Shown here piece by piece: positions 35,382 through 50,018 of a DNA stretch of 64,000 nt (positions within the stretch are counted from its first letter, which is position 1; each line of letters opens with the position of its first letter). The notes beneath the pieces were generated by a model. The model had not been told where the DNA came from, made no database searches, and saw only the letters and a program-made list of their open reading frames with translations. Origin of the DNA: Candidatus Aerophobetes bacterium Ae_b3b (GTDB taxonomy: Bacteria; Aerophobota; Aerophobia; Aerophobales; AE-B3A); the NCBI GenBank assembly GCA_005223085.1, contig NJBP01000004.1, positions 855-64,854 of the forward strand, written 5' to 3'. Made by a program: the position numbers and the translations under genes.

Positions 35382-35409
35382 TTGACACTTAGAAATTTTC
35401 GATTATAAT
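35382..35409 (+). promoter_or_regulatory. consensus sigma70 promoter of the SorC-family regulator gene
   Basis: TTGACA (35382-35387), 16-nt spacer, TATAAT (35404-35409). Confidence 0.55.
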
Positions 35410-35478: not shown

Positions 35479-36417
35479 ATGACAGACTTAATAACGAGAA
35501 TAGCTTGGCTGTACTATAAAGAAGGATTGAAAGAGACTCAAATTGCTAGTATGCTGGATCTATCACGGAGCAAGGTAGGTCGTTTACTTCAGAAGGCTCG
35601 CCAGGACGGAATTGTTCACTTCCAGGTGCTCGGGACTACCAGCAATTGCCTAGAGATCGAGAAAAAACTCATTGACTTATTTGATTTGCAGGACGCAGTA
35701 GTAGTTCCCACAGTTTCAGAAAATAAGATTAAAGAGAGTTTAGCCAAGGCAGCCGCTCAATACCTCGAGAGACATCTCCCCAGTGGAAGCCTCTTTGCGG
35801 TAGGTTGGGGAATCACCATATCCGAAGTGCCTAAATTTATTCGCTCGCAAGAAATCCGCGATCTCAGAATAGTCACCCTTAATGGAGGACTTACCCCTTC
35901 ATTTTATCTAAATCCCTACGACGTTGGGAGCAGGCTGGCCTATATCCTTGGAGGAGAGTGTTACTATGTTCACGCTCCTGCCATAACCACATCCGAGCAT
36001 CTGTGTCGCTCCCTTAAAGCCGATGCTACCGTAGAGCAGGCTCTGGAGATGGCCAAACACGCTGATTACTTTATGGTGGGCATCGGTAGGGCCGGTGCTG
36101 AGTCGACCTTGGTTAAGATGAGATATCTTAATCTAGGAGAAACCGAAGCTCTACGTCAACAAGGTGCCGTGGGGGATATCCTGGGCCAGTTTTTCAATGT
36201 CCAGGGTGAAAAAGTTAACTGTGACCTCCACAAAAGAATTGTAGGCTTTCCCATCGAGGATTTGAGCAAAATGAAAAATGTGATCGGACTGGCCGGGGGA
36301 ATAGCTAAAGCAGAGGCCATCCTAGGAGCACTCCATGGCATGTACATTAAGATCCTCATCACCGACGAGAAGACGGCCGAGTCCCTGATAAATCTTGAGC
36401 AAAGATCAGCTTCTTGA
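35479..36417 (+). CDS. SorC/DeoR-type sugar-binding transcriptional regulator
   Basis: N-terminal HTH IAWLYYKEGLKETQIASMLDLSRSKVGRLLQKARQDGIV followed by a sugar-phosphate-binding domain (...VGWG.T...). Confidence 0.85.
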   Translation: MTDLITRIAWLYYKEGLKETQIASMLDLSRSKVGRLLQKARQDGIVHFQVLGTTSNCLEIEKKLIDLFDLQDAVVVPTVSENKIKESLAKAAAQYLERHLPSGSLFAVGWGITISEVPKFIRSQEIRDLRIVTLNGGLTPSFYLNPYDVGSRLAYILGGECYYVHAPAITTSEHLCRSLKADATVEQALEMAKHADYFMVGIGRAGAESTLVKMRYLNLGETEALRQQGAVGDILGQFFNVQGEKVNCDLHKRIVGFPIEDLSKMKNVIGLAGGIAKAEAILGALHGMYIKILITDEKTAESLINLEQRSAS

Positions 36418-36552: not shown

Positions 36553-38094
36553 ATGAAAAGAAACAAAGTGATACTTGGTGCGGTGGTGACATTGGCGGCT
36601 CTATTGCTAGTGTCTGTGGGAGTGGCTCCAGTATTTTGCTACACCGCCGCCCAGGAAAAATATTTTCCCCGGGTAGATCGGAAAATGTCCCCGTTCTTAA
36701 TGGCCCGGTGGGGAATTGTCCCTGGATATCAATTCCCCAACGATTGGGTCAAGACAGTGGATTGGTCAGAGATTAAGAAAAAATACGGCGGAACTACGGT
36801 GACTATGGCCATTCAGGGACACGATGTTTCCGCCCCGGAGATGTTCAAAAAGGACTTCGAGGCCCTTTCCGGAATTAAGGTCGAGCTATACGGTGTTCCC
36901 TCAGAAGAGTTCACTGAGAAACTGCTGGTGGAATTCCTTGCCGGGACTGCCAAATACGACACCGTGGAGTACTACCAGGGCGACACCGGAATGTTCATTC
37001 CCTATCTAGCTGATCTAGCTCCGTATGTGACCAAATTTAAATATACGGACATCAAGGATATTCACCCAGTTTATTTCTGGATTCACTCACTCCGCGACGG
37101 CAGAATAGTCGCCCTCCCCTTTGATAGTGACTGTCGATTACTGCATTATCGCCCCAAGATGCTGGCACTGGCCGGATATGATCGACCACCCAAAACCTGG
37201 ACAGAAACCCTCGAGTACTGCAAAAAGCTAGAGCAGGCACTACCCGAGGGAACATATGCCATTGGATTCCCGGGATCTCGTCATTTTGGGGCTCTCAAGG
37301 CCTGGATGGATATTGCCGGTTCTGAAGGGGTAGAGTTCTTTACCGAAGGCTGGAAGGTAGCTCTTAACACTCCCGACGGAGTGGGAGCTCTCAGGACAAT
37401 GATGGAGCTTTCCAAGTACGCACCTCCGGGTCTAAAGAACTGGGGCTACTCTGAGTGTCGGGAAGCCTGGTTGGGCGGAAAAATGGCTATGGTCCAGCAG
37501 TGGCAGTGCGTGGGAAGACAAATGTACGATCCCGAACTCTCTGAGTTCGCTCTGGAAGATCCGCGCCCGGAAAGTGCTCCCTTACCTCAGGGAACCGGGC
37601 CCAATGCTCGAGAGGCCTACAGTGTCGTTCAGGGATCCTCTGCAAGTTTGACTGAAGTTAGCAAAAACAAGGAAGCAGCTGCCATCTGGCTTTTCTTCCT
37701 CAATGGAACGGAAACCCAGTTCGTCTATTCTATCTCCGGTACCGGAGTCGAGACAGGCTCCAGGAAGGTTCTGGAGAATCCCGTCTATCAGAAAGGATTC
37801 CCTCCCGCCAAAGCTTGGCTCTATGAGCTGGACTATGCCAATGCTGAACAGCTATGGATTTCAGAATGGTCAACTCTGGAATCGTTAGGTACGATGATTG
37901 TCAACTATGGACTGGTGGGAGAATATACTCCTGAAAAAGCCATGGAGATTTTAGAGAAGAGGTGGACCCAAGTTATGAAACGGGCTGGATACTATCTGCC
38001 GGGAGCACCACCGGTACCCAGCGCCTACTGGCCAGAAATCAGGGATGCGTTTATTGAGAAAGTCAACGAGCTCTTCGATAGTCTCGGAGTATAA
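36553..38094 (+). CDS. ABC transporter extracellular solute-binding protein (carbohydrate, family 1 type)
   Basis: Signal/anchor peptide MKRNKVILGAVVTLAALLLVS. 513 aa. Followed by two MalF/MalG-type permeases. Confidence 0.8.
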   Translation: MKRNKVILGAVVTLAALLLVSVGVAPVFCYTAAQEKYFPRVDRKMSPFLMARWGIVPGYQFPNDWVKTVDWSEIKKKYGGTTVTMAIQGHDVSAPEMFKKDFEALSGIKVELYGVPSEEFTEKLLVEFLAGTAKYDTVEYYQGDTGMFIPYLADLAPYVTKFKYTDIKDIHPVYFWIHSLRDGRIVALPFDSDCRLLHYRPKMLALAGYDRPPKTWTETLEYCKKLEQALPEGTYAIGFPGSRHFGALKAWMDIAGSEGVEFFTEGWKVALNTPDGVGALRTMMELSKYAPPGLKNWGYSECREAWLGGKMAMVQQWQCVGRQMYDPELSEFALEDPRPESAPLPQGTGPNAREAYSVVQGSSASLTEVSKNKEAAAIWLFFLNGTETQFVYSISGTGVETGSRKVLENPVYQKGFPPAKAWLYELDYANAEQLWISEWSTLESLGTMIVNYGLVGEYTPEKAMEILEKRWTQVMKRAGYYLPGAPPVPSAYWPEIRDAFIEKVNELFDSLGV

Positions 38095-38182: not shown

Positions 38183-39067
38183 GTGAAGAAGCTTAAGTGG
38201 AGAAAACTTCTGGTTATCCTGGCCCTGCTGGGCCCAGCCATGGCTATGTTCATAGGACTTACCGTCTATCCTTTCATCAAAAACCTCATCTGGAGTACTA
38301 CCTTTTTTGTCCTCTACAAACCTACAAGCCAATACGTTTCTGCTGGTCTGGAAAACTACAAGGATATTCTGTTTGGGATTGAATTCTGGAACAGCGTCGA
38401 ATCCAGTTTAGTAATCGTTTTTGGAGCCCTGGCTATAGAGTGTTTCATTGGCCTGGGAGTCGCTCTGGTGCTAAATGAGAGGTTCCGGGGACGGGGCATT
38501 CTGAGGACTCTCTTCATTATCCCCATGGGAGTTATGCCCATAGTAGCCGGAGTGGTCTGGAAACTGATGCTCTTTCCTGGAGGGAGTCTAATTAGCGACA
38601 TCCTGGTGAAGATGCGATTGGCTTCCGGTCAGCTCGACTTCTGGGGTGATGTCCGGCTAGCCCGACTGAGTGTCATGGCGGCGGACATCTGGGGCTGGAC
38701 CCCTTTTGTGGGCCTTATTCTTCTGGCTGGCCTGCAGGCCATCCCCAGTGAGTTATACGATGCGGCCCAGGTGGACGGTGCCTCACAGCTGCAGAGATTC
38801 ACCCATGTGACCGCCCCCCTGCTCAAGTACGCCATAATTGTTGCTCTTATGTTTCGGGGAATGGATCTCCTTCGTCTTTTTGACACGGTGTACATGATGA
38901 CCCAGGGAGGTCCCGGATATGCTACAGAAGTCATCAGTTTCTTTATCTACCGAAAAGGCTTTTCGGAGTTTGGTGTGGGATACGCGGCTGCTACGTCGGT
39001 CATAGTATTCGTGGTAATCTTCGTCATAGCTCAAATTACGGTGCGCAAGTCCGGTATTGCTGCCTGA
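38183..39067 (+). CDS. carbohydrate ABC transporter permease (MalF/UgpA-like)
   Basis: GTG start, six TM segments, and the EAA-loop region ELYDAAQVDGASQLQRFTHVTAPLL. Confidence 0.85.
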   Translation: MKKLKWRKLLVILALLGPAMAMFIGLTVYPFIKNLIWSTTFFVLYKPTSQYVSAGLENYKDILFGIEFWNSVESSLVIVFGALAIECFIGLGVALVLNERFRGRGILRTLFIIPMGVMPIVAGVVWKLMLFPGGSLISDILVKMRLASGQLDFWGDVRLARLSVMAADIWGWTPFVGLILLAGLQAIPSELYDAAQVDGASQLQRFTHVTAPLLKYAIIVALMFRGMDLLRLFDTVYMMTQGGPGYATEVISFFIYRKGFSEFGVGYAAATSVIVFVVIFVIAQITVRKSGIAA

Positions 39068-39078
39068 GAGGTCTAAAT

Positions 39079-39909
39079 GTGAAGAGAATAAACATACCTA
39101 AAACCATCGGCATTTGTCTGGTAGTCCTCTACGTTGTGGCGGCTCTAATTCCAGTCTACTGGGTGGTTACCACCGCCTTTAAACCCCGGATAGAAGTGTA
39201 TACCTTTCCGGTGAAGTATATACCTTCCTCTTTCACCTGGGAGCCAGCTCATAATTCCCTTACCCAGCGGCCAACCATGAGTTTCCTCCGAAACAGTCTC
39301 TTTGCTGCAGTCGGCGCTACTATTCTCGCTCTGGCGCTGGGAGTGCCAGCTGCCTATGCCCTAGCCCGAGAGAAATTCCCGGGAAGGAAGGATATAGCCT
39401 TTTTTATCTTGACCACCAGAATGTTCCCTCCGGTAACTATTTGCATCCCCATCTACTTTATTATTAGGAATGTAGGGTTGTTGGATAGGCTCGCCGGTTT
39501 GATAATCGTATACGCCATGTTTAACCTGGCTATCATCATTTGGGTAATGAAGGGATACATTCAACAGGTGCCGGTGGAAATTGAGGAAAGTGCCAGGGTA
39601 GATGGTTGCACCAAACTGGGGGCTTTTATCAGAATCACCCTGCCTCTGCTTGCCCCCGGAATGGCTGCGGTAGCAATTATTTCTCTGGTATTGTCGTGGA
39701 ACGAATTCCTCTACGCTCTCATACTTACTCATTCGCCGGCTGCCAAAACCTTGCCGGTGGGAATTGCTGAATTCATTGGCGGTGCCTACGGCATTCTCTG
39801 GGGTGAAATCTGCTTCCTTGGTACTGTAGCCATTATCCCTATGATCGTGCTCATTATGGTGGTTCAGAAATACATCGTCCGCGGTTTGACTATGGGCGCC
39901 ATAAGATAA
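39079..39909 (+). CDS. carbohydrate ABC transporter permease (MalG/UgpE-like)
   Basis: GTG start and the EAA-loop region EIEESARVDGCTKLGAFIRITLPLLAPG. Confidence 0.85.
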   Translation: MKRINIPKTIGICLVVLYVVAALIPVYWVVTTAFKPRIEVYTFPVKYIPSSFTWEPAHNSLTQRPTMSFLRNSLFAAVGATILALALGVPAAYALAREKFPGRKDIAFFILTTRMFPPVTICIPIYFIIRNVGLLDRLAGLIIVYAMFNLAIIIWVMKGYIQQVPVEIEESARVDGCTKLGAFIRITLPLLAPGMAAVAIISLVLSWNEFLYALILTHSPAAKTLPVGIAEFIGGAYGILWGEICFLGTVAIIPMIVLIMVVQKYIVRGLTMGAIR

Positions 39910-40589: not shown

Positions 40590-41873
40590 GTGGCTAGATT
40601 TGATCCGATTGTTTTCTCTTCCTGGGAGGGACTCCATCAGGAAAACTATTTGATAGCCATGTATTTTATGGAGGTGGAGGCTAGCGTAGATCCAGTAGAG
40701 TTGGGTGTAGAGATCGCAGTGGACCAGACTACTGGCACCTGGACTGCCGTACCAGCCGAAACACCGGAAGTCCGTCGTCACCATATGGCCAAGTTGATAG
40801 CTCTTCACGAAGTTCCAAATTATGAGTTTGAGGTTCCTCAGGATACCAAGACAAGGCGCTATCTAATTCAGATAGCATTCCCTACCATAAACTTTGGACC
40901 CCAGATTCCCATGCTGTTGAGCAGTGTGTTTGGCAACTTATCGTCTCGTGGCTGGATAAAATTACTGGACCTTCAGTTTCCCAGAACCTTTCTGGAAAGT
41001 TTTCCTGGTCCAAAATTTGGAATTGAAGGATTGCGCAGGCTTCTAGGGATATGGGATAGACCAATCTTATGTAATGTTATTAAACCCTGTACTGGTATCA
41101 GTCCTGAAGTAGGAGCTGAACTTGTCTACCAGGCAGCCAGGGGAGGGGTAGATATCATTAAGGACGATGAGTTGATCGGTGATGCTCCCTTTTCTCCAAT
41201 GGTAAAGCGAGTGAAGGAATACATGTGCCGACTCAAGGAAGCCGACGAACAGAAAGGCGAAAAGACGCTATTTGCAATAAATGTTACTGACCGGCAGGAT
41301 AAGATTCGGGATAACGCTCTGAGAGCGATTGAGGCAGGGGCTAACGCACTGATGATAAGCTTTGCAACGGTCGGTTTCTCCATGGTACGAACTCTGGCAG
41401 AGGATAAGTCCATAAATGTTCCCATAATGGGGCATATGAATTTTGCCGGCGCGCTTTGCGAATCACCATGTTCAGGTGTGAGCTCCGAACTAATCTGTGG
41501 AAAGTTGGCCCGAATGGTGGGTATGGATATGGTTCTTGTTTATCCTCCTCAGAGCCGATTTCATCTCATAGAAAATAAGTTTGAGCGTGTTGTGCAGATA
41601 TTGCAGCAACCTTTTTCCAAAATAAAACCAAGCTTTCCTTTATTAGCTGGCGGTGTTCATCCGGGAATAGTTCCTGCTACTCTAGACTCAATGGGGACTG
41701 ATGTCATTATTGGCGCCGGAGGTTCTGTTCACGGTCATCCTGGTGGTGCTGTAGCCGGAGCTCGGGCTTTCCGGCAGGCCTTTGAAGCCTATTCTCGTGG
41801 CGTTGACTTGGAAGGATGGGCTCAGGATAAAGAGGAGCTGCAGCAAGCCTTGGGACTTTGGGGAACAGCATGA
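40590..41873 (+). CDS. RuBisCO-like protein (form IV RuBisCO large-subunit homolog)
   Basis: GTG start with AAAGGAGG 7 nt upstream. Motifs are VAVDQTTGTW, GNLSS, IKPCTGIS (KPK changed to KPC; Cys codon at 41088-41090), GGVDIIKDDE (KDDE retained, at the same 26-residue spacing from the KP motif as in RuBisCO), IMGHMNFAG and GAGGSVHGHPGG. Confidence 0.85.
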   Translation: MARFDPIVFSSWEGLHQENYLIAMYFMEVEASVDPVELGVEIAVDQTTGTWTAVPAETPEVRRHHMAKLIALHEVPNYEFEVPQDTKTRRYLIQIAFPTINFGPQIPMLLSSVFGNLSSRGWIKLLDLQFPRTFLESFPGPKFGIEGLRRLLGIWDRPILCNVIKPCTGISPEVGAELVYQAARGGVDIIKDDELIGDAPFSPMVKRVKEYMCRLKEADEQKGEKTLFAINVTDRQDKIRDNALRAIEAGANALMISFATVGFSMVRTLAEDKSINVPIMGHMNFAGALCESPCSGVSSELICGKLARMVGMDMVLVYPPQSRFHLIENKFERVVQILQQPFSKIKPSFPLLAGGVHPGIVPATLDSMGTDVIIGAGGSVHGHPGGAVAGARAFRQAFEAYSRGVDLEGWAQDKEELQQALGLWGTA

Positions 41874-42865
41874 GCTTGGTAGACGAAGAAGAAAAACAGC
41901 GGTCTGTTCTGGCTCCTGAGTTCTATAGAAAAATGTTAGCCGTTAGGCTATTCGAGCAGCGTGCTATTGAGCTTTACACTCGAGGAGAGATTCGGGGAGT
42001 TATTCACCCCTATATCGGTGAGGAAGCTGTAGCTGTAGGAGCGTGCGCTGTTCTCAACAATGATGACTACGTGGTTTCTACTCATCGCGGCCATGGCCAT
42101 TGCATTGCCAAAGGAGCTTCATTGGATCGGATGATGGCCGAACTTCTGGGACGTAGCAATGGCTACTGTCGAGGAAAGGGTGGTTCCATGCATCTGGCCA
42201 CCTTTGAAGTGGGAATGTTGGGTGCCATAGGTATCGTGGCAGCAGGTATTCCCATTGCTGTGGGAGCTGGACTATCAGTGAAATTGAGAAAGACTCGTCA
42301 GGTAGTAATTTGCTTTTTCGGTGATGGTGCTGTCAACCAGGGAGCATTCCATGAGGGTTTAAATATGGCTGCTGTGTGGAACTTACCGGTTGTCTTTCTG
42401 TGTGAAAATAATTTCTATGCTATCTCTACTCACGTGAGCAGAGTTTCGGCAGTAACCGAGGTGGCTCGGAGGAGTTGTGCCTATGACATTCCAGGTAAGC
42501 GAGTCGATGGCAATTCCGTATGGGCTGTCTACGAGGCGGTTCAGGAGGCAGTAGCCCGGGCTAGACATGGACATGGTCCAAGTCTCATCGAGGCTCTGAC
42601 CTACCGCCATGAAGGACATTACAAGGGAGACCCCGGTCATTATCGACCACCAGAGGAGTTAAAAAAATGGCAACGGAAGGATCCCATTAAAAAGTTAAGG
42701 AAAGAGTTACTAGCTAAAAATTGGCTGGAGCCAAAAGCACTGGAGGAACTGGAACAGGAGGTTGCCCAAGATGTACAAAGGGCCGTTGAGTTTGCCAGGA
42801 AGAGTCCCTATCCTGCAGAGGAGGAACTCACAAGCGATATATTCGGAGGAGACCATAGGAAATGA
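41870..42865 (+). CDS. ThDP-dependent dehydrogenase E1 component, alpha subunit (acetoin/pyruvate/2-oxoisovalerate dehydrogenase type)
   Basis: Motifs ...IHPYIGEEAVAVGA...STHRGHGH...GKGGSMH...GDGAVNQGAFHEGLN.A..W.LPVVF.CENN. The ATG at 41870 overlaps the RLP stop (ATGA). The listed ORF start is 41858. Confidence 0.85.
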   Translation: MSLVDEEEKQRSVLAPEFYRKMLAVRLFEQRAIELYTRGEIRGVIHPYIGEEAVAVGACAVLNNDDYVVSTHRGHGHCIAKGASLDRMMAELLGRSNGYCRGKGGSMHLATFEVGMLGAIGIVAAGIPIAVGAGLSVKLRKTRQVVICFFGDGAVNQGAFHEGLNMAAVWNLPVVFLCENNFYAISTHVSRVSAVTEVARRSCAYDIPGKRVDGNSVWAVYEAVQEAVARARHGHGPSLIEALTYRHEGHYKGDPGHYRPPEELKKWQRKDPIKKLRKELLAKNWLEPKALEELEQEVAQDVQRAVEFARKSPYPAEEELTSDIFGGDHRK

Positions 42866-43839
42866 GGGAAATTAGCTACCGAGACGCCATAAATGAGGCT
42901 TTACAAGAGGAGATGAAGCGCGATGAAAGAGTGATACTACTTGGCGAAGACATCTCGCACTATGGTGGACCTCGGCGAGTAACCTGGGGTCTTGTTGAGA
43001 GTTTTGGTGAAGACCGGGTCAGGGATACACCTATTTCAGAGAATACTATTATAGGCACGGGTCTGGGAGCCGCTATTACCGGTATGCGGCCGCTTGTGGA
43101 GATTTCGTATATAGATTTTGCTTTACTGGCTATGGATCAAATTGGTAACCAAGTAGCCAAATTATCCTATATGACCGGTGGTCAAACCAAGGTACCTTTG
43201 GTTATTCGGACCCAGGGTGGGGCTGGTGGTGGCACCGCTGCTCAGCACTCGCAGAGCTTGGAGATGCTATTTGTACATATTCCTGGGCTGAAAGTGGTAA
43301 TTCCGGCTACTCCTTATGATGCTAAGGGATTAATTAAGATGGCTATCCGGGATGATAGCCCGGTGGTCTTCATTGAACACAAGTTGCTCTATAGTACCAA
43401 GGGAATGGTTCCGGAAGAAGAGTATCTTATTCCTTTCGGTAAGGCGGCAATTCGCCGCAGTGGTTCGGATATTACCATGGTAACTTATTCGGCCATGTTG
43501 TCAGAAGTGATGGCGGCTGCTGACGTACTCCATCAGAAGGAGATAGAAGCAGAAGTGCTTGATCTGAGGACCCTTATCCCATTAGATATTGATGGTGTTC
43601 TGGCCTCGGTGAAAAAGACAGGGAGGTTACTGATAATCCATGAGGCCTCTTTGGTTGGAGGAATGGGGGCTGAAATTGCTGCCCAAGTTCAGGAACAGGC
43701 ATTTGACTATCTGGATGCCCCTGTTATCCGTCTGGGAGCAGTTCCGATACCTATTCCTTATTCAGAGTCCCTGGAGCGGCTGGTTTTTCCCAATAAAGGG
43801 AAAATAGTTACTGCTAGCCGTGCCCTAATTGTTGCTTAA
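42862..43839 (+). CDS. ThDP-dependent dehydrogenase E1 component, beta subunit
   Basis: Motifs ISYRDAINEAL.EEM.RDERV.LLGEDI...DTPISEN...AQHSQSLE...PGLKVV.PATPYDAKGL. ATGA overlap with the alpha subunit. Confidence 0.85.
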   Translation: MREISYRDAINEALQEEMKRDERVILLGEDISHYGGPRRVTWGLVESFGEDRVRDTPISENTIIGTGLGAAITGMRPLVEISYIDFALLAMDQIGNQVAKLSYMTGGQTKVPLVIRTQGGAGGGTAAQHSQSLEMLFVHIPGLKVVIPATPYDAKGLIKMAIRDDSPVVFIEHKLLYSTKGMVPEEEYLIPFGKAAIRRSGSDITMVTYSAMLSEVMAAADVLHQKEIEAEVLDLRTLIPLDIDGVLASVKKTGRLLIIHEASLVGGMGAEIAAQVQEQAFDYLDAPVIRLGAVPIPIPYSESLERLVFPNKGKIVTASRALIVA

Positions 43840-43938
43840 CCTGTGTCGGTTTGACACCCTAAAAATACTTCCCGTAAGCCACGTCGCTTGACGGCGTGGT
43901 AAGGGAGGTGTCCAGCGAAGCTGCGCTAAGTTGCTCTT

Positions 43939-44345: not shown

Positions 44346-44384
44346 GTATATATCAGAAACTACTAAGGGAGAGGAAGGGGGATT

Positions 44385-44409
44385 TCAAGGGGAAAGAATT
44401 TCCCCTTGA
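44385..44409. other. perfect 10-bp hairpin next to the IS remnant
   Basis: TCAAGGGGAA-agaat-TTCCCCTTGA. Confidence 0.4.
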
Positions 44410-44543
44410 TTATCTTGTACGGAGGTAAACGTCCGCTTCTAGCATTTATTCTTCTTCAGCACCGTCAAAGTGATGGGTTTTGACCTGTGAGGGGATAATA
44501 GTATGCCGATTCGCTGAGAAAACAGTGAAAGGGGTTTTTGAGG

Positions 44544-45638
44544 ATGAGACTCTTGTTGACCAGTAAACTAGAAGATGAAGACCTGAAGATATTGAGTCGC
44601 TACTTTGATGAAATAAGAATTCGTGGTCTCTACGTGCGTTCCAAGATTCTCCGGCCAGAGGAACTGGCTGCGGAGTTAGGAAATGTTGATATTCTGGTAG
44701 TAGAGTTTGATCAGGTAACACCAGAGGTATTGGATACCGCACCCAACCTGAAGTTAATAGTTTCGCTGCGGGCTGGTGCAGGCCGTAACATTAACCTGAG
44801 GGCTGCCACAGAAAGAGGCATACTGGTGGCCTGCTGTCCCGGTCGTAGCGCTGATCAGGTGGCTGATTTCACCCTGGGTGTGATAGTAGCCCTTGTCCGA
44901 CACATTGCTGAGACTCACTGTCTAATCAAGTCTCGACAGCTTACCGAGAAAAATCCCAAGCGAGAGGGCTTTGCCAAAGGTGATGTTGTCTGGATTATGA
45001 ATGATCCCCAGAACTTTAGCTTCTTGCGTTTCAAAGGACCCATATTAGCTGGTCGGACTCTGGGTATTTTGGGATTTGGTGTCATCGGCCGGGAGGTAGC
45101 CCGCCGAGCCGGAGGCTTTAAGGTAACTATGATTGCCCATGATCCCTACGTTTCACCTGAGGAAATAGCAGAATTTAGAGTAAAGCTGGTTGATTGCGAC
45201 ACTCTGTTCAGAGAGTCAGACTTTCTTACGGTGCATGTTAAGGATAGTCCTGAAACCCGTGGCTTGGCTGGAAGATATCAGTTCTCCCTGATGAAATCTA
45301 CCGCTTACTTTATCAATACGGCTCGGGGTTCCGTCGTTGACTACAATGCCTTATACGAGGTGCTGGTTAACAAGAAAATTGCCGGTGCAGCTCTGGATGT
45401 ATTCGAGGAAGAACCGCTGCCCCCTGATCACCCACTGCTGGATCTGGACAATGTCCTACTGACTCCTCACATTGCCGGGGCCAGTCCCGATTGCTATAGG
45501 GTATCCTCTCCCCTGGCGAGAAAGGCAATTGAGGACTTTCTGGCTGGTCGCAAACCGCGATTTCTGGCCAACGAGCAGGTCTGGGAACGCCGAAGGTTCA
45601 GAATCGACAAAGACAAATCAGATTACCGGGAAAATTAA
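44544..45638 (+). CDS. D-isomer-specific 2-hydroxyacid dehydrogenase (PGDH-like) with an insertion in the catalytic domain
   Basis: Motifs GILGFGVIGREVARR (GxGxxG), ...INTARG..VD..AL...L....I.GAALDVFE.EP... and LLTPHIAGAS. An alternative TTG start lies at 44538. Confidence 0.8.
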   Translation: MRLLLTSKLEDEDLKILSRYFDEIRIRGLYVRSKILRPEELAAELGNVDILVVEFDQVTPEVLDTAPNLKLIVSLRAGAGRNINLRAATERGILVACCPGRSADQVADFTLGVIVALVRHIAETHCLIKSRQLTEKNPKREGFAKGDVVWIMNDPQNFSFLRFKGPILAGRTLGILGFGVIGREVARRAGGFKVTMIAHDPYVSPEEIAEFRVKLVDCDTLFRESDFLTVHVKDSPETRGLAGRYQFSLMKSTAYFINTARGSVVDYNALYEVLVNKKIAGAALDVFEEEPLPPDHPLLDLDNVLLTPHIAGASPDCYRVSSPLARKAIEDFLAGRKPRFLANEQVWERRRFRIDKDKSDYREN

Positions 45639-47152
45639 TGAGCTCTCGGGAATTGGTAATTGGAATAGATATTGGAACTTCTCAAGCCAAAGGAGGGGTA
45701 TTTGATCCCCAAGGCAGATGTCTGGGGAAGGCCTCCTTCTCGTATGCCATACATTCCCCACATCCTTCTTGGGATGAGGTTGACGCTGAGGACTGGTGGC
45801 AGGCGGTCTGTCACATAATCCACCAATCTCTTGCCACAGCCAGAGTGTCCAGCAGGGATATTGCTGCCATATCAGTCAGTAGCCTGCTACCCTGCTGCCT
45901 TCCGGTCGATCACCAGGGAAACCCCCTCCGTAGGGCCATTATCTGGCGCGATCGGCGCACCGATCAAGAGTGCGCTTGGATGGAGCAGCACATCGGAGGC
46001 GATGCCTGCTTCGAAATCTCCGGCAACCGTATTGACCATTATTTCTGGGGTCCTAAGGTGCTCTGGATAAAGCATCAGGAGCCAAAAATCTTTAAGAGAA
46101 CCTGGAAGCTGCTACAGGCTCACAGCTACATGGTGCTGAAGCTTTGTGGTGAAACGGTGACTGATTTCACCTGTGGCAATCTCTCTATACCCTTCTATGA
46201 TTACCGCAGGAAATGCTGGTCACCTGCAATGAGTGAGAAGATGGGGGTTCCCATTGAGATGCTGCCTGATTTAAGACCTTCACACATGGTGGTCGGTCGG
46301 GTGAGCACCAACGTAACCGGAGAAACTGGTCTTGATAGGGGTACCCTGGTAGTCACAGGGTGTGGAGACTTTGCTTCCTCAACCCTGGGAGCGGGCGTTT
46401 ATCGTCAGGGAGAGGCTTGCATGATGTTGGGAACCGCCGGAAACTTACTCATCCCTATGGATAACCCCAACTTCGATCCCCGTCTCATTAATTCTTCTCA
46501 TGCCTTGCCCAACCGGTACATAAGTTTTGCCACTTCTTATGCTGGTGGCTCACTTCAGTGGTTACGGCAGGTTCTGGCTGGATCAAGAAACGAATTTGAC
46601 ATCTCTTACCAACAGTTGGATTTGGAGGCCTCCCGCATCCCGCTAGGATCAGAGGGACTGCTGTTTCTCCCATTTCTTCCGGGAGAACTTACTATTAACT
46701 GGGACCGGACATCACGAGGTGTCTTCTTTGGCCTAACTCTGAATCACACCAGAGGACACCTCTACCGAGCTGTACTGGAATCGATTGGATATCGATACCG
46801 TCACATGCTAGAAATCATGGCCAGTCGCGGAATCAGGGTGAAAAAAGCAACCCTTATCAATGGCGGTGGAAAAAGTCCAGTTTGGCGACAAATTCTGGCC
46901 GACATTACCGGTATGCACCTTAATTACACGGAGTCAGAGGGAGCTCCCCTGGGAAACGCAGTATTGGCTGCCATGGGAGCCAAGCTCATCAAGAGTGGCG
47001 AGGAAGTAAAGAACTGGTTATCGATAAAGAGTGAAACTGAACCCGACCAGAGAGCTTATCGGTTATACAACGATTACTTTCAACTGTACAAAAGACTTTA
47101 TGAGCACCTGAAGGATGATTTTCAGGAACGCTATCGCTTTGTTGGCAGCTAA
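45638..47152 (+). CDS. FGGY-family carbohydrate kinase (paralog 1)
   Basis: Motifs LVIGIDIGTSQAKGGVFD...RRAIIWRDRRT...GGGKSPVWRQILADITG. Its start overlaps the upstream stop (TAATG). Confidence 0.85.
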   Translation: MSSRELVIGIDIGTSQAKGGVFDPQGRCLGKASFSYAIHSPHPSWDEVDAEDWWQAVCHIIHQSLATARVSSRDIAAISVSSLLPCCLPVDHQGNPLRRAIIWRDRRTDQECAWMEQHIGGDACFEISGNRIDHYFWGPKVLWIKHQEPKIFKRTWKLLQAHSYMVLKLCGETVTDFTCGNLSIPFYDYRRKCWSPAMSEKMGVPIEMLPDLRPSHMVVGRVSTNVTGETGLDRGTLVVTGCGDFASSTLGAGVYRQGEACMMLGTAGNLLIPMDNPNFDPRLINSSHALPNRYISFATSYAGGSLQWLRQVLAGSRNEFDISYQQLDLEASRIPLGSEGLLFLPFLPGELTINWDRTSRGVFFGLTLNHTRGHLYRAVLESIGYRYRHMLEIMASRGIRVKKATLINGGGKSPVWRQILADITGMHLNYTESEGAPLGNAVLAAMGAKLIKSGEEVKNWLSIKSETEPDQRAYRLYNDYFQLYKRLYEHLKDDFQERYRFVGS

Positions 47153-47173
47153 CAGAGGACGAGGAGTGGTGCG

Positions 47174-48706
47174 ATGGTTGTAATAGGATTGGATCTGGGA
47201 ACTACTGTCTGTAAAGCTGGGCTCTTCGATACCACAGGAAAACTTTTAAAACTGGTTAGAAGGGAATATCCGGTTACCAGTGATTATCCGGGGTGGGCTG
47301 AGCAGAATCCTGATATTGTTTGGAACACCATTCGAATGGTTTTGTCAGAGATCGCTGAAGATAAACAGTTAAACGATCCTATCAAGGCGATTTGCATCTC
47401 AGCTCAGGGTGAGGCAGTAGTCTTTCTCGATCAACGGGGCAGGCCCTTGCGTAATTCCATCCTCGGGATGGATATGAGATCGGTGGAGCAGGCAGAGCGT
47501 TTAAAAAGCAAGCTGGGAGCCGAATGGTTTTTAGAGACCCCCGGAGTTCCTCCTCATCCCCTCACTACAGTAGCCAAGATCCTCTGGGTTAAGGAACATG
47601 AGCCGGAGATTGCCCAAAAAACTGTTCGCTACCTTTGCTATGAGGATTTTGCCTTCTTCAAACTAGGCGACGTTCCCGCCATCGACTACTCCCTTGCTTG
47701 CCGGACTGGGCTTTTTGATATGAGAAAGAAAAAATGGTCAGCGAAGATATTGGATTATACCGGGATAAACGAAGATCAACTGGCCAACATCTACCCCTCG
47801 GGAGAGGCGATCGGCAAAATTAACCGAAAAATAGCTCATACTTTGGGCTTACCGACCGATATTCTACTGGTCACTGGCGGACACGATGTGACCTGTGCGG
47901 CTTTGGGAGCAGGTGCCATCAACAAGGGAGTGGGGGGAGATATTCTGGGGACGGCGGAAATTTTTGGCGTTACTGTGGAGAACAACTCAGTGGCGAAAGA
48001 AATAAAACCGAGTAACTTTGCCTGCTACTGTCACGTAGTTCCGAACAAGTTCTGGCTGATGACTTTGAATCACACCGGTGGGCTTCTCCTCAGGTGGTAT
48101 CGAGATAACTTTGGTGAGTCAGAGGTAAAGCTGTCTGAGAAAGAAGGAAAAGATGTCTTTGACTTAATAGTAAGTAAAAGTAAGCCCGACATTGCAGAAA
48201 GCATGATCCTTCCCCATTTTGTAGGCAGCGGCACTCCCTGGATAGATGCTCGTTCCAAAGGAGCAATAGTGGGTTTGAGCATTCACACCAACAAAGCCGA
48301 TATTATTCGAGCCATCCTGGAAGCCGTCATTTATGAGCAAAAGATAAGTATAGACATTTTTGAAAAATACGGAGTCGATATTAAAGAGATCAGAGCAGTG
48401 GGGGGAGGTAGTAAATCTCGGTTCTGGCTACAGATAAGGTCAGATATCCTGGGAAAAGCTGTTCTTACTTTGGAAACTGAGGAGGCTTCCTGCCTCGGAA
48501 CCGCCATTCTTGCCAACTATGCTCTGGGGAATTATCCCTCTATTGAGAACGGCGTCGAACAAATGGTGAAGATGAAGGACAGAATCGAACCGAACAAAAA
48601 ACTTTACTCCCGGTACCAGCAAAGATATCTTATTTACCAAGAGCTTTACCCAGCCCTCAAGAAGATCAATTATTCGCTTCAGCAAATAAGCTCCAGGGGA
48701 GGTTGA
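47174..48706 (+). CDS. FGGY-family carbohydrate kinase (paralog 2)
   Basis: Motifs VVIGLDLGTTVCKAGLFD...GGHDVTCAALGAG...VGGGSKSRFWLQIRSDILG. Confidence 0.85.
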   Translation: MVVIGLDLGTTVCKAGLFDTTGKLLKLVRREYPVTSDYPGWAEQNPDIVWNTIRMVLSEIAEDKQLNDPIKAICISAQGEAVVFLDQRGRPLRNSILGMDMRSVEQAERLKSKLGAEWFLETPGVPPHPLTTVAKILWVKEHEPEIAQKTVRYLCYEDFAFFKLGDVPAIDYSLACRTGLFDMRKKKWSAKILDYTGINEDQLANIYPSGEAIGKINRKIAHTLGLPTDILLVTGGHDVTCAALGAGAINKGVGGDILGTAEIFGVTVENNSVAKEIKPSNFACYCHVVPNKFWLMTLNHTGGLLLRWYRDNFGESEVKLSEKEGKDVFDLIVSKSKPDIAESMILPHFVGSGTPWIDARSKGAIVGLSIHTNKADIIRAILEAVIYEQKISIDIFEKYGVDIKEIRAVGGGSKSRFWLQIRSDILGKAVLTLETEEASCLGTAILANYALGNYPSIENGVEQMVKMKDRIEPNKKLYSRYQQRYLIYQELYPALKKINYSLQQISSRGG

Positions 48707-48710
48707 TAAA

Positions 48711-50018
48711 TTGGAACTGCTTTATCAAAAACTAAAATCTCTTCAAGAAAAAAAACAGCCTATAAAGGTGGGCCTGGTTGGATGCGGCCAGATGGGATCA
48801 GGAATGGTAAGTCTGGTAAGCCAGATGCCCGGATTAGAAGTTGCAGCCGTGGCCGAATTAGACCTGGAAAAAGCCAAAGGTGCTTATGAGACTGCTGGAA
48901 TTCCCGAGGGAAAAATTGCCGTTGTTGAGGACCCGGAAAAAGCGGAGGATCTCCTAGGTAGAGGCAAAGTCATCATCTGCAAAAATGCTTTGACTCTGGT
49001 TTCTATCCCTTCTCTTCAAGCAGTGGTGGAAGCTACTGGTATCCCTCGAGTCGGTGCCCAGATTGCTTTAGAATGCATCTTTCACCAAAAGCATGTAATT
49101 ATGCTGAATGTGGAAACCGAGGTGACGGTGGGTTGGATACTGAAAAAAATGGCTGATAAAACCAATGTTATCTACACCGTCTCGGCGGGAGACGAGCCGG
49201 GAGCCATAAAAGAGCTCTACAACTTCGCCTCTTCTTTAGGATTTTCGGTGGTGACCGCCGGGAAGGGTAAAAATAATCCCCTAGATTTGGATGCAACTCC
49301 TGATGAGTGCCAGGAAGAAGCCCTGAGAAAAGATATGAACCCCAAAATGCTAACTTCCTTTATAGACGGGACAAAAACAATGATTGAAATGGCTGCAGTG
49401 GCCAACGCCACTGGTCTCGTTCCCGACGTCCCGGGAATGCATGGTCCCAAAGTTGATGTCTCTGAACTCACTCAGGTATTAATACCCAAGAAAGACGGAG
49501 GTATATTGAGTAGAAGTGGGGTGGTTGACTACTCTATCGGCAAAGTGGCTCCGGGTGTTTTCCTGATAGTAACCACGGGTAAAGAAAGGGTAAGAAAAGA
49601 TTTAGGATTCTACGGCATGGGAGAAGGTCCCTATTACCTTCTTTACCGTCCTTATCATCTATGCAGTATAGAGACTCCTCTTTCCGTAGCTAGAGCGGTT
49701 CTTTTTAATGAACCCACCTTAAATTCAGAACAAAGAGTAGCTGAAGTGGTAACGGTAGCCAAGCAGAATCTAGATGTCGGAGTCACCATTGATGGAATAG
49801 GGGGCTACCATGTGCTTGGACGAATCTATCCAGCGCAAGAAGCAAGAAAAAAAAATCTTTTACCTTTAGGACTAGCTGAAGGAGGCAGAGTCAAGATAAG
49901 AGTCGCCAAAGGGGAATACATCACTATGGATATGGTTGAGCCAGAAACGGAATCGACCGTTTACCAGCTTTGGAAATTACAGGAAAGCCTCTGGCAATCC
50001 GAGCTTAAGAGTAAATAA
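48711..50018 (+). CDS. NAD(P)-binding oxidoreductase with C-terminal SAF domain (COG4091 'homoserine dehydrogenase-like' family)
   Basis: TTG start, a Rossmann motif VGLVGCGQMGSG, and a C-terminal SAF-like beta-clip (...VAKQNLDVGVTIDGIGGYHVLGRI...). Confidence 0.65.
   Translation: MELLYQKLKSLQEKKQPIKVGLVGCGQMGSGMVSLVSQMPGLEVAAVAELDLEKAKGAYETAGIPEGKIAVVEDPEKAEDLLGRGKVIICKNALTLVSIPSLQAVVEATGIPRVGAQIALECIFHQKHVIMLNVETEVTVGWILKKMADKTNVIYTVSAGDEPGAIKELYNFASSLGFSVVTAGKGKNNPLDLDATPDECQEEALRKDMNPKMLTSFIDGTKTMIEMAAVANATGLVPDVPGMHGPKVDVSELTQVLIPKKDGGILSRSGVVDYSIGKVAPGVFLIVTTGKERVRKDLGFYGMGEGPYYLLYRPYHLCSIETPLSVARAVLFNEPTLNSEQRVAEVVTVAKQNLDVGVTIDGIGGYHVLGRIYPAQEARKKNLLPLGLAEGGRVKIRVAKGEYITMDMVEPETESTVYQLWKLQESLWQSELKSK

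What the first reader, a model, noticed from the sequence alone, without database searches (positions are those of the whole stretch)
40590..41873. Form-IV RuBisCO-like protein with a KPC variant of the KPK motif, in a non-methionine-salvage context
The 427-aa protein is clearly a RuBisCO large-subunit homolog. It retains the equivalent of K175 (K165), the carbamylation/metal triad K201-D203-E204 (K191, D193, E194, with the same 26-residue spacing from the KP motif) and the H294 equivalent (GHM). It has Cys167 where RuBisCO has K177, and Met where R295 sits, so carboxylase activity is unlikely. Characterised RLP functions occur with mtn genes or DUF1537-type kinases: DK-MTP-1-P enolase MtnW, the R. 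rubrum MTRu-1-P isomerase, and the RLPs of D-apionate catabolism. None of those partners is present here. The neighbours are instead an ABC sugar importer, FGGY kinases, RpiB, dehydrogenases and an orphan E1 pair. The substrate and reaction are therefore open.
Basis: partly seen in the sequence, partly recalled or inferred. Interest (0 to 1): 0.75.

Follow-up and report, generated by a model that had tools for sequence, protein, structure and literature searches.

The report
RuBisCO-like enzyme paired with thiamine enzyme
This gene encodes a non-CO2-fixing relative of RuBisCO from an unstudied branch that always sits directly upstream of a thiamine-dependent bond-cleaving enzyme inside sugar-alcohol utilisation operons, which points to a sugar-breakdown step that has not been described.

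Summary
The ORF at 40590-41873 is real.

The KPC motif is not distinctive. It is invariant (117/118) in a large uncharacterised RLP clade and is common in many other RLP clusters.

The protein is not MtnW. It scores below both NCBIfam cut-offs and has Asn where MtnW has its catalytic Lys. It is also not OiaX, not IV-Photo and not a true carboxylase.

The distinctive feature is a small subclade with the active-site signature D45/Y318/R323/H357. In this subclade the RLP gene is always followed by E1-alpha and E1-beta genes of a thiamine-diphosphate (TPP) enzyme:
- 10 of 10 loci with enough downstream DNA have this arrangement, against 0 of 59 other clade members.
- In the window both gene junctions are ATGA overlaps.
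- In the sister lineage (about 50% identity) the operon is PTS + Zn-ADH + RLP + E1ab + lipoyl E2.
- In a 98%-identical copy the same trio sits behind a different ABC transporter, a Zn-ADH and an FGGY kinase.

Best reading (inferred, not shown): a polyol is imported, oxidised and phosphorylated. The RLP enolises the keto-sugar monophosphate, and the E1 cleaves the product by TPP chemistry. The substrate is unknown. I found no paper describing an RLP-E1 pairing.

The parts
35479..36417 (+). SorC/DeoR-type sugar-phosphate-sensing regulator. A perfect sigma-70-like promoter lies at 35382-35409.
   Evidence: Pfam Sugar-bind 1.1e-71. Best NCBIfam matches are LsrR and DeoR, both below cut-off. Promoter. 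92-93% identical in L001/L018.
36553..38094 (+). ABC solute-binding protein (family 1, 513 aa); ligand unknown.
   Evidence: Pfam SBP_bac_1. Only weak PDB matches, best MalE3 at 84 bits.
38183..39909 (+). Two ABC permeases (38183-39067 and 39079-39909).
   Evidence: Pfam BPD_transp_1 for both.
40590..41873 (+). Form-IV RuBisCO-like protein of the N-KPC clade, E1-linked subclade. Signature residues: D45, N116, K165-P-C167, K191, D193, E194, H282, Y318, R323, H357.
41870..42865 (+). TPP-dependent E1 alpha subunit. The likely start is the ATG at 41870, which overlaps the RLP stop codon as ATGA. The mechanical ORF start is the TTG at 41858.
   Evidence: Pfam E1_dh 9.3e-91. TIGR03182 scores 385.9 against a cut-off of 393.85. 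The GDG...NN TPP motif is present. Junction sequence. The 331-aa homologs P0360 and the L005 gene call fit the ATG start.
42862..43839 (+). E1 beta subunit. Its ATG overlaps the E1 alpha stop codon as ATGA.
   Evidence: Pfam Transket_pyr + Transketolase_C. NF006667 scores 399.6 against a cut-off of 321. Junction.
44385..44409 (+). Terminator-like hairpin (11-bp stem) after the RLP-E1ab unit.
   Evidence: This is a consensus match only.
44538..45638 (+). D-isomer-specific 2-hydroxyacid dehydrogenase.
   Evidence: Pfam 2-Hacid_dh_C 6.2e-55. 83% identical and linked to the transporter in L005.
45638..48706 (+). Two FGGY carbohydrate kinases (45638-47152 and 47174-48706), both xylulokinase-like but below cut-off.
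   Evidence: TIGR01312 XylB scores 351.6 and 340.6 against a cut-off of 380.25. Best PDB match is E. coli XylB 2itm.
48711..50018 (+). DRL-type (DXP-reductoisomerase-like) oxidoreductase.
   Evidence: Pfam DRL_cat 3.2e-70. 372 bits to PDB entries 3upl/3upy, labelled 'Oxidoreductase' in the tool output and Brucella DRL from my own knowledge.
50047..50679 (+). RpiB-type sugar-phosphate isomerase.
   Evidence: TIGR01120 scores 149.1 against a cut-off of 138.65. Pfam LacAB_rpiB.
50683..51720 (+). Zn-dependent polyol/alcohol dehydrogenase (MDR family).
   Evidence: Pfam ADH_N + ADH_zinc_N. No NCBIfam equivalog reached. A Zn-ADH directly precedes the RLP in the sister-clade operons and is present in L019.

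Best explanation
The gene encodes a non-carboxylating RuBisCO-like protein that works as one unit with the TPP-dependent E1 alpha/beta encoded immediately downstream. The setting is the catabolism of an imported polyol or rare sugar.

Proposed sequence:
1. The substrate is taken up by the ABC system. In the sister lineage a galactitol/ascorbate-family PTS does this.
2. A Zn-dependent dehydrogenase oxidises it to a keto-sugar, and an FGGY kinase (or the PTS) phosphorylates it.
3. The RLP binds this monophosphate through its intact G354-G355/G377-G378 phosphate site. It uses carbamylated K191-Mg2+ (D193, E194) with K165 and H282 to form an enediolate. It then releases an isomer: a tautomer, an epimer or a dehydrated product, that is, an acyloin or alpha-dicarbonyl phosphate.
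4. The E1ab attacks that carbonyl with TPP and cleaves the adjacent C-C bond, as in acetoin dehydrogenase. This yields a C2-TPP unit plus a phosphorylated aldehyde or acid.
5. In the sister lineage a lipoyl-E2 passes the C2 unit to CoA. In this lineage no E2 is adjacent.

What is shown:
- family membership
- which residues are kept and which are lost
- exclusion from MtnW, OiaX, IV-Photo and true RuBisCO
- the conserved gene order and the overlapping stop/start codons

What is inferred:
- every chemical step
- the order of RLP before E1
- the monophosphate nature of the substrate
- the identity of the substrate, which remains unknown
For: Active site:
- The enolisation and metal residues are invariant (K165, K191, D193, H282), and so are the phosphate-site glycines G354 and G377-G378 (G355 varies, G or S). 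R295, H298 and S379 are replaced. From the known RuBisCO active site, this suggests a monophosphate substrate.
- N116 sits where MtnW has K98, so the base is more likely the carbamate, as in RuBisCO.

Gene linkage:
- The RLP/E1a and E1a/E1b junctions are both ATGA overlaps.
- RLP-E1a-E1b is conserved in L001 (94% RLP identity), L005 (85%) and L019 (98%). L018 (99%) carries RLP-E1a up to its contig end.
- In L019 the trio follows a different transporter (25-37% identity), a Zn-ADH and an FGGY kinase in a compact GntR-regulated operon. The trio therefore moves as a cassette.
- The sister subclade is about 50% identical. It was sister in 81% of NJ bootstraps. In one search it was the exclusive sister in 47% and fell within a clade of 12 or fewer taxa in 68%.
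- Its operon is PTS-ZnADH-RLP-E1a-E1b-E2 in all five loci seen.
- Among the loci analysed, all 7 with the signature D45/Y318/R323/H357 and at least 600 nt of downstream DNA have an adjacent E1a, against 0 of 59 without the signature (Fisher 1.3e-9). The window, L001 and L005 add three more.

Other support:
- The E1a has an intact TPP motif.
- Its nearest non-RLP relatives (57-63% identity) lie in E1ab-E2 clusters, one of which also carries two Zn-ADHs. That layout resembles acetoin/butanediol systems.
- In most loci of the rest of the N-KPC clade with informative flanks, an RLP sits beside a kinase or PTS: FGGY, PTS, or UPF0261, a family now shown to be a kinase (PMC12624787).
- Formation of an enediolate is common to all characterised RLPs (PMC10176493).
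Against: - No biochemical data exist for any member of this clade.
- The window, L001, L005, L018 and L019 have no E2 or E3 nearby. The fate of the TPP-bound unit in this lineage is therefore unexplained.
- The E1a genes of the two RLP subclades are not each other's closest relatives: 45-48% identity to each other against 57-63% to non-RLP E1a. The partnership was either assembled twice or one partner was replaced.
- PDH-type E1 enzymes normally act on 2-oxo acids. A 2-hydroxyacid dehydrogenase is linked in the window and in L005, which fits an oxo-acid route better than an acyloin route.
- R323 and N116 could bind a carboxylate, as in RuBisCO's carboxyketone intermediate.
- Deep phylogeny is unresolved by the NJ trees I could build.
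Confidence: 0.5

Rival explanations
1. The RLP acts on a keto-acid phosphate, as in the apionate pathway, either as a decarboxylase or as a C-C hydrolase. The 2-hydroxyacid dehydrogenase makes or consumes the oxo-acid. The E1ab then decarboxylates a resulting 2-oxo acid in the classical way.
For: - PDH-type E1ab enzymes normally decarboxylate 2-oxo acids.
- A D-2-hydroxyacid DH is linked to the transporter in the window and in L005. Distant 2HADH homologs lie near RLPs in several other loci.
- N116 (= N123), R323 (= K334) and D45 (which I map to E60 by motif comparison with spinach RuBisCO from memory) are kept or conservatively changed. In RuBisCO these residues surround the carboxylate of the intermediate (established knowledge).
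- RLP decarboxylase and transcarboxylase/hydrolase activities exist (PMC6302742).
Against: - The OiaX model scores 219.7 against a cut-off of 700.
- There is no DUF1537 kinase.
- The minimal operons (L019, L015-L017, L054) have a Zn-ADH but no 2HADH.
Confidence: 0.15
2. The order is reversed. The E1ab acts as a DXS- or transketolase-like carboligase or transferase that makes a (deoxy)ketose phosphate. The RLP then isomerises that product, as the R. rubrum RLP interconverts ketose 1- and 5-phosphates.
For: - The E1a gives weak DXP_synthase_N and transketolase matches.
- A DRL (DXR-like) gene and XylB-like kinases are in the window operon.
- RLP isomerases exist (PMC10176493).
Against: - The gene order is RLP before E1.
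- The sister clade carries a lipoyl-E2 acyltransferase, which implies oxidative cleavage rather than ligation.
- DRL is absent from L019 and from the sister operons.
- The operons are built around uptake systems, so they look catabolic.
Confidence: 0.12
3. The RLP is simply a keto-sugar-phosphate epimerase or isomerase of the polyol pathway. The E1ab adjacency reflects co-regulation of a separate step, for example disposal of acetoin or another acyloin, and not consecutive reactions.
For: - Other N-KPC RLPs work without an E1 in similar polyol/PTS/kinase contexts, some with class II aldolases.
- The two subclades use different E1 lineages.
Against: - The stop/start codons overlap.
- Adjacency is 10/10 against 0/59, coupled to a specific loop-6 signature.
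- The trio moves between operons as a cassette.
- The sister operons contain no other downstream enzyme that could take the RLP product into central metabolism.
Confidence: 0.1
4. It is a DK-MTP-1-P enolase (MtnW) of methionine salvage, as JGI annotation names members of its cluster.
For: - MtnW gives the best NCBIfam and PDB matches.
- JGI names cluster members this way.
Against: - The protein scores below both equivalog cut-offs.
- Identity to G. kaustophilus MtnW is 37-38%.
- It has Asn at the position of the catalytic Lys 98, which is K in every MtnW-like representative.
- It has K-P-C where MtnW has K-G-M.
- No mtn genes are in the window.
Confidence: 0.03
5. It is a functional RuBP carboxylase.
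For: K175, K201, D203, E204, H294 and N123 equivalents are retained.
Against: - K177 is C, R295 is M, H298 is A, K334 is R and S379 is A.
- The form III model scores 255 against a cut-off of 497.
- No PRK or AMP-pathway genes are in the window.
Confidence: 0.02

Closest known systems
DK-MTP-1-P enolase MtnW / YkrW-type RLP (G. kaustophilus 2oek/2oem, B. subtilis 2zvi)
   Same: It is the best-scoring characterised relative: 298 bits, 37-38% identity and TM-scores of 0.88-0.92. It has the same fold and the same carbamyl-Lys/Mg2+ triad. The R295/H298 phosphate-site residues are replaced in both.
   Different: The query has Asn116 at the position of MtnW's catalytic Lys 98, and K-P-C instead of K-G-M. 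It scores below the equivalog cut-offs. It has no mtn neighbours. Its partner is a TPP E1 rather than MtnB/MtnX.
Uncharacterised 'Moorella-type' N-KPC RLP clade (Neomoorella thermoacetica, Thermacetogenium phaeum, Caldiserica, Hadarchaeales, gut and digester metagenomes)
   Same: Identity is 50-55%. N116, M/V-I-K-P-C-T-G, K-D-D-E, H282, G-G and H-G-H-P are invariant. All members sit in sugar or polyol clusters with a kinase or PTS, often with a SorC regulator. Their function was reported as unknown (PMC7325909).
   Different: Those proteins have E45, K323, usually T357 and a P-S-P-Y-G-K-F loop 6. They pair with UPF0261/PEP-hydrolase-like proteins, FGGY kinases or class II aldolases, and never with a co-oriented adjacent E1.
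RLPs of D-apionate catabolism (OiaX decarboxylase; transcarboxylase/hydrolase)
   Same: These are also RLPs used in the catabolism of an unusual plant-derived sugar after a dedicated kinase step. The overall logic of dehydrogenase, then kinase, then RLP is similar (PMC6302742).
   Different: OiaX scores 219.7 against a cut-off of 700. There is no DUF1537 kinase. The partner here is a TPP E1.
Acetoin dehydrogenase enzyme system / PDH-type E1ab-E2 (the partner, not the RLP)
   Same: E1 alpha/beta with a TPP motif. The sister operons add a lipoyl-E2. A Zn-ADH acts upstream, as butanediol dehydrogenase does. The nearest E1a relatives lie in E1ab-E2 clusters, one of which also carries two Zn-ADHs.
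   Different: No RLP is known in those systems. There is no E2 or E3 next to the window's E1. The substrate is presumably a phosphorylated sugar derivative.
Lsr (phospho-AI-2) pathway, as a functional analogy only
   Same: A SorC-family regulator (best match LsrR), an FGGY kinase with LsrK similarity, and a phosphorylated dicarbonyl that is tautomerised and then cleaved to an acetyl unit plus a triose phosphate (established knowledge of LsrK/LsrG/LsrF).
   Different: No LsrG or LsrF homologs are in this operon. All matches are far below cut-off. The tautomerase would be an RLP and the cleaving enzyme a TPP E1.

Membership tests
RuBisCO large-subunit superfamily | N-terminal alpha+beta domain plus C-terminal TIM-barrel domain (PF02788 + PF00016) | tested here: met
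   Pfam 1.8e-09 and 1.6e-51. AF2 model with TM-scores of 0.87-0.92 to RLP and RuBisCO structures.
RuBisCO large-subunit superfamily | Carbamylatable Lys plus Asp/Glu metal ligands (K201, D203, E204), K175 and H294 | tested here: met
   K191, D193, E194, K165 and H282. All five are invariant across the 118 clade homologs. Four are invariant across alignment A1, where E194 is nearly invariant.
Bona fide RuBisCO (forms I-III) | K177, R295, H298, K334 and S379 all present | tested here: not met
   The query has C167, M283, A286, R323 and A353. In the same alignment, KPK/H-R-x-x-H representatives carry K, R, H, K and S at these positions. Form III TIGR03326 scores 255 against a cut-off of 497.
MtnW / YkrW DK-MTP-1-P enolase | Score above the NCBIfam equivalog cut-off | tested here: not met
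   NF007095 scores 360.4 against 409. TIGR03332 scores 322.8 against 513.6.
MtnW / YkrW DK-MTP-1-P enolase | General-base Lys in the N-terminal domain (Lys 98 in G. kaustophilus; Imker et al. 2007, from my own knowledge, paper not held) | tested here: not met
   The query has N116 where 2oek has K. All MtnW-like representatives have K at this position.
MtnW / YkrW DK-MTP-1-P enolase | Co-occurrence with mtnA/B/K/X/D genes | tested here: not met
   None were found among the scanned window ORFs of about 150 aa or more. The rest of the genome was not visible.
OiaX 3-oxo-isoapionate-4-P decarboxylase | NCBIfam NF042437 cut-off, and an adjacent DUF1537 kinase | tested here: not met
   219.7 against a cut-off of 700. 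No DUF1537 kinase in the window.
IV-Photo RLP (C. tepidum, R. palustris RLP2) | Signature E(N123)/K-P-N/F(R295), and high similarity to 1tel/2qyg | tested here: not met
   The query has N/K-P-C/M. It scores 229 bits to 1tel, whereas a true Photo-type representative (P0198) scores 478 bits.
IV-DeepYkr MTRu-1-P isomerase (R. rubrum RLP) | Clustering with the R. rubrum RLP; cupin MTXu-5-P sulfurylase partner | not tested
No cupin gene lies next to the RLP in the window.
D-hamamelose-pathway RLP oxygenase | Clustering with the O. anthropi RLP; bisphosphate substrate | not tested
   No reference sequence was available. The loss of the R295/H298 site argues against a bisphosphate substrate (inference).
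N-KPC uncharacterised RLP clade | N116, I-K-P-C-T-G, K-D-D-E-L, H282, G355, G377-G378, H-G-H-P | tested here: met
   All are present. Each is found in 116-118 of 118 homologs.
E1-linked RLP subclade (defined here) | D45, Y318, P320, R323-F324 and H357, plus E1 alpha/beta genes immediately downstream | tested here: met
   Y318, P320, R323 and F324 are invariant in alignment A1; D45 and H357 are nearly so, and all eight E1-linked loci carry D45, Y318, R323 and H357. Adjacency is 7/7 against 0/59, plus the window, L001 and L005.
2-oxoacid/acetoin dehydrogenase complex (for the partner E1) | E1 alpha/beta with a TPP motif together with E2 and E3 | tested here: inconclusive
   E1ab and the TPP motif are present. 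An E2 is present in the sister-clade operons but is absent from the window and from L001, L005, L018 and L019.

The most novel reading that the evidence does not exclude
The RLP-E1ab(-E2) cassette may be a previously unrecognised route for splitting a phosphorylated keto-sugar derived from a polyol. The RLP would make an acyloin or 1-deoxy-2,3-dicarbonyl phosphate by enolisation, possibly with dehydration. A PDH/acetoin-type TPP enzyme would then cleave it to an acetyl (or glycolyl) unit plus a triose or tetrose phosphate or phospho-acid. That would be a new RLP reaction and a new substrate class for E1 enzymes, and functionally an alternative to phosphoketolase or aldolase cleavage.
Probability: 0.3. 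Interest if true: 0.8.

Novelty: new variant of a known kind. Interest (0 to 1): 0.62.

Why it matters
Only a handful of RLP reactions are known: proton abstraction, isomerisation, decarboxylation or transcarboxylation, and oxygenation (PMC10176493). Each new one has revealed an unexpected pathway.

This subclade has three useful properties:
- a clear sequence signature
- a fixed, translationally coupled TPP-enzyme partner
- compact operons (transport, Zn-ADH, kinase or PTS, RLP, E1ab, sometimes E2) that look like a complete short pathway

Together these make the function directly testable with recombinant proteins.

The finding also flags a systematic misannotation. Members of this cluster are named 'DK-MTP-1-P enolase' in JGI data.

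The wider N-KPC clade of unknown function is abundant in anaerobes, including human-gut metagenomes.

Tried and rejected
- **KPC as the distinguishing feature.** Rejected, because it is 117/118 in the clade and widespread elsewhere.
- **Genome-contig scan with the single protein.** It returned only 4 loci, so neighbourhoods had to come from the look-up of encoding contigs and one metagenome scan.
- **The two gaps flanking the RLP-E1ab unit (39910-40589 and 43840-44537).** There is no Rfam match and no meaningful repeats. There are no pseudogene remnants beyond the syntenic non-coding sequence of L001/L018, and the 'ORFs' there look spurious.
- **The 56-aa gene after E1b in L005.** It has no counterpart in the window.
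- **L086 and L091.** These RLPs (43% identity) have a fused E1 and an E2 a few kb away on the other strand. I judged this not comparable: they lack the signature and the genes are not adjacent.
- **Deep NJ phylogeny.** Support is too low to order the form-IV clades, and no ML program was available.
- **NCBIfam naming of the neighbours.** The Zn-ADH, FGGY kinases, E2 and SBP gave no equivalog. Only RpiB passed its cut-off.
- **PDB searches for the SBP and kinases.** They gave no substrate clue beyond similarity to XylB.
- **Key papers not held.** Carter 2018, Tabita 2007, Erb 2012, Erb and Zarzycki 2018 and Imker 2008 could not be read.
- **My early idea that UPF0261 corresponds to AcvAB.** This was wrong. 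The relevant precedent is MarK.
- **Literature searches for an RLP-E1 or RLP-PTS link.** They found nothing.
Full report
**1. The observation**

The ORF at 40590-41873 (+) exists. It is 427 aa with a GTG start, and an AGGAGG lies 7 nt upstream. Pfam finds both RuBisCO large-subunit domains, with E-values of 1.6e-51 and 1.8e-09. An AlphaFold2 model (pLDDT 84.2, pTM 0.84) superposes on G. kaustophilus MtnW and the C. tepidum RLP with TM-scores of 0.87-0.92.

I aligned the protein with 50%-identity cluster representatives.
- K165 = K175
- C167 = K177
- K191/D193/E194 = K201/D203/E204
- H282 = H294
- M283 = R295

The same alignment adds these:
- N116 = N123
- A286 = H298
- R323 = K334
- A353 = S379
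- the phosphate-site glycines G354-G355 and G377-G378 are retained

The neighbours are as described. I scanned the window's ORFs of about 150 aa or more across the window. None is an mtn gene, a DUF1537 kinase, an E2 or an E3.

**2. What it is not**

- **MtnW.** The best NCBIfam models are the two MtnW equivalogs, but both scores are below cut-off: 360.4 against 409, and 322.8 against 513.6.
- **OiaX.** The score is 219.7 against a cut-off of 700.
- **Form III RuBisCO.** The score is 255 against a cut-off of 497 (all).

In the HMMER alignment with 2oek, the MtnW motif T-F-G-K-L-S aligns with V-F-G-N-L-S in the query, and K-G-M aligns with K-P-C. Every MtnW-like representative carries that Lys. 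From my own knowledge of Imker et al. 2007, this Lys 98 is the general base of the enolase.

A IV-Photo anchor, P0198, scores 478 bits to 1tel. It shows the signature E/K-P-N/F, whereas the query has N/K-P-C/M. The JGI name 'DK-MTP-1-P enolase' given to members of the query's cluster is therefore probably a misannotation.

**3. KPC is ordinary**

In an alignment with the 120 best homologs, Cys167 is 117/118 and Asn116 is 116/118. K165, P166, K191, D193, E194 and H282 are each 118/118. K-P-C also occurs in dozens of other 50%-identity RLP clusters.

The protein belongs to a large 'N-KPC' clade. Members include Neomoorella thermoacetica, Thermacetogenium phaeum, Caldiserica, Hadarchaeales, Ignavibacteriales and many metagenomic sequences. 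A 2020 paper described the function of these proteins as unknown (PMC7325909).

**4. What is distinctive**

The query's close relatives are P0001 (98%, a 90% cluster of 42 members), P0002 (85%), and L001, a 'Clostridia bacterium' MAG at 94%. All of them differ from the rest of the clade in the loop-6 region and at a few other positions.

- The NJ sister group is the P0121 group, at about 50% identity to the query. P0121 itself was sister to the query clade in 81% of bootstraps.
- In one search the P0121 group was the exclusive sister in 47% of bootstraps and fell within a clade of 12 or fewer taxa in 68%. The sister group itself is monophyletic in 100%.
- In a reciprocal search with P0121, the query clade comes directly after P0121's own group.
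- Both groups share Y318, P320 and R323-F324 without exception, and D45 and H357 in all but one or two members. Other clade members have E45, K or G at 323, and mostly T357.
- D45/R323 replaces the E/K pair that I map to E60 and K334. K334 follows; E60 is mapped by motif comparison with spinach RuBisCO from memory. I read this as a compensated change, which is an inference.

**5. Conserved partner**

In the window the RLP stop codon overlaps the E1-alpha ATG as ATGA. The E1-alpha stop codon overlaps the E1-beta ATG in the same way.

| Locus | RLP identity to query | Arrangement |
|---|---|---|
| L001 | 94% | fully syntenic with the window |
| L018 | 99% | RLP-E1a, then the contig ends |
| L005 | 85% | RLP-E1a-E1b, but divergent from the transporter-2HADH unit |
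| L019 | 98% | GntR-ZnADH-FGGY-SBP-permease-permease-RLP-E1a-E1b; the transporter is only 25-37% identical to the window's |
| L014-L017, L054 (sister group) | 46-50% | galactitol/ascorbate-family PTS, Zn-ADH, RLP, E1a, E1b, lipoyl-E2 |

L019 shows that the trio moves between operons as a cassette. In the sister group the E2 is either split into a lipoyl protein plus a catalytic domain, or is full-length with an E3-binding domain.

Across the loci recovered by the metagenome scan, all 7 signature-bearing RLPs with at least 600 nt of downstream DNA have an adjacent co-oriented E1a. None of the 59 others does (Fisher 1.3e-9). The loci are not phylogenetically independent, but they span about 45-100% identity. 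The window, L001 and L005 add three more positive cases.

**6. The rest of the clade**

Other N-KPC RLPs sit in four kinds of cluster:
- a SorC regulator with UPF0261 and PEP-hydrolase-like proteins (about 25 loci, several from human gut)
- an FGGY kinase (about 15 loci)
- a PTS with a Zn-ADH or 2HADH and a class II aldolase-family protein
- a class II aldolase-family protein with RpiB

UPF0261 has recently been shown to be a kinase family (MarK; PMC12624787). The common theme is uptake, then phosphorylation, often oxidation, and then the RLP.

**7. The E1**

The E1a has the GDG...NN TPP motif. Its best solved relative is human PDH E1a at 232 bits. Its closest homologs outside its own lineage (57-63% identity) are annotated as PDH E1 alpha. 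In Bathyarchaeia contigs these sit in E1a-E1b-E2 clusters, one of them with two Zn-ADHs beside it. That layout resembles acetoin/butanediol systems.

The E1a genes of the two RLP subclades are only 45-48% identical to each other. The partnership was therefore either assembled twice or one partner was replaced. Either history is compatible with selection for the pairing.

**8. Mechanism (inferred)**

The retained residues are those RuBisCO uses to form and stabilise the 2,3-enediolate: carbamyl-K201/Mg2+, K175, H294 and N123. The residues I know as the C5-phosphate site (R295 and H298) are replaced, and the glycines I know as the C1-phosphate site are kept. This assignment comes from the known RuBisCO active site, not from a tool result. 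It suggests a keto-sugar monophosphate substrate. With no MtnW-type Lys, the carbamate is the likely base.

The compact operons leave only three enzymes between a polyol (phosphate) and central metabolism: the Zn-ADH, the RLP and the E1ab (with or without E2). I therefore propose that the RLP converts the keto-sugar phosphate into an acyloin or alpha-dicarbonyl phosphate, and that the E1 cleaves this through TPP. The C2 unit would go to CoA where an E2 is present.

I cannot tell whether the outcome of enolisation is a carbonyl shift, an epimerisation or a dehydration. I also cannot identify the substrate. The window's extra genes (2HADH, a second FGGY kinase, DRL-type oxidoreductase, RpiB) are absent from L019 and from the sister operons. 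They may handle products or a related substrate.

**9. Comparison with what is known, and novelty**

The known RLP reactions are the DK-MTP-1-P enolase, the MTRu-1-P isomerase, the 3-oxo-isoapionate-4-P decarboxylase and transcarboxylase/hydrolase, and an oxygenase in D-hamamelose catabolism (PMC10176493; PMC6302742). I found no paper linking an RLP to a TPP-dependent E1 or to a PTS/Zn-ADH operon. Several key subscription papers could not be read.

I class this as a new variant of a known kind: an uncharacterised RLP subfamily with a defined signature and a new obligate-looking partner.

**10. Limits**

- No biochemistry exists for any clade member.
- Only NJ trees could be built, and deep nodes are unresolved.
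- The absence of an E2 in this lineage is unexplained.
- The R. rubrum and hamamelose RLP groups could not be tested for lack of reference sequences.

Noticed in passing
L019:2577-13269: An RLP 98% identical to the window's, with E1a (90%) and E1b (88%), sits behind a different ABC transporter (25-37% identity), a Zn-ADH (50%), an FGGY kinase (48%) and a GntR/UTRA regulator. It is either a second copy or a strain variant. Either way, the RLP-E1ab trio is a movable cassette.
   Followed up: partly
L005:10060-15613: The 85%-identical locus carries a second, very divergent RLP (429 aa, 31% identity, only the C-terminal Pfam domain detected). Next to it are a full-length transketolase, a small ferredoxin, a DUF3604 protein and another ABC transporter.
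   Followed up: partly
L010, L012, L021-L027, L035, L043, L044, L049-L053, L066, L072, L079, L096: The commonest context of the wider N-KPC clade is a SorC regulator, the RLP, a PEP-hydrolase-like TIM barrel, UPF0261 (a kinase family) and a second PEP-hydrolase-like protein, sometimes with a ComB-type phosphatase. Several contigs are from human gut. I found no described function for this cluster.
   Followed up: partly
window:54165-63278 (- strand): A second sugar operon: SBP, two permeases, DeoC/LacD-family aldolase, aldo-keto reductase, FGGY kinase, ribulose-phosphate 3-epimerase and an RnfC/Nuo51-like FMN/Fe-S protein.
   Followed up: no
window:9278-11468: LptF/LptG lipopolysaccharide-export permeases lie in a genome whose nearest MAG is labelled Clostridia and which also has ClpC/McsA-type genes. 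This suggests a diderm Firmicute lineage.
   Followed up: no
window:48711-50018: A DRL-type (DXR-like) oxidoreductase scores 372 bits to PDB 3upl/3upy (labelled 'Oxidoreductase'; Brucella DRL from my own knowledge). It sits in a catabolic-looking operon with two XylB-like kinases and RpiB. No NCBIfam model matches it.
   Followed up: partly
window:41870-43839 versus L098-L100: The window's E1 alpha is closer (57-63% identity) to E1 alpha proteins of Bathyarchaeia E1ab-E2 clusters, one of which carries two Zn-ADHs, than to the E1 alpha of the sister RLP operons (45-48%).
   Followed up: yes
L015:13277-14346, L016:13276-14257: In two sister operons the E2 is split into an 80-aa lipoyl protein and a 221-239-aa catalytic domain, with no E3-binding domain detected. 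L017 has a conventional full-length E2.
   Followed up: no
window:39910-40589 and 43840-44537: Two non-coding gaps of about 700 nt flank the RLP-E1ab unit. They are conserved but indel-rich in L001 and L018, with no Rfam match and no coding remnant. L005 and L019 lack this arrangement.
   Followed up: yes
window:3924-5579: A methylenetetrahydrofolate reductase with an MTHFR C-terminal (DUF5981) domain ahead of the MTHFR domain. From my own knowledge, this fusion is seen in anaerobes with the Wood-Ljungdahl pathway.
   Followed up: no
P0001 cluster: Public JGI annotation names members of the query's 90% cluster '2,3-diketo-5-methylthiopentyl-1-phosphate enolase'. The residue and score tests here do not support that name.
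   Followed up: yes
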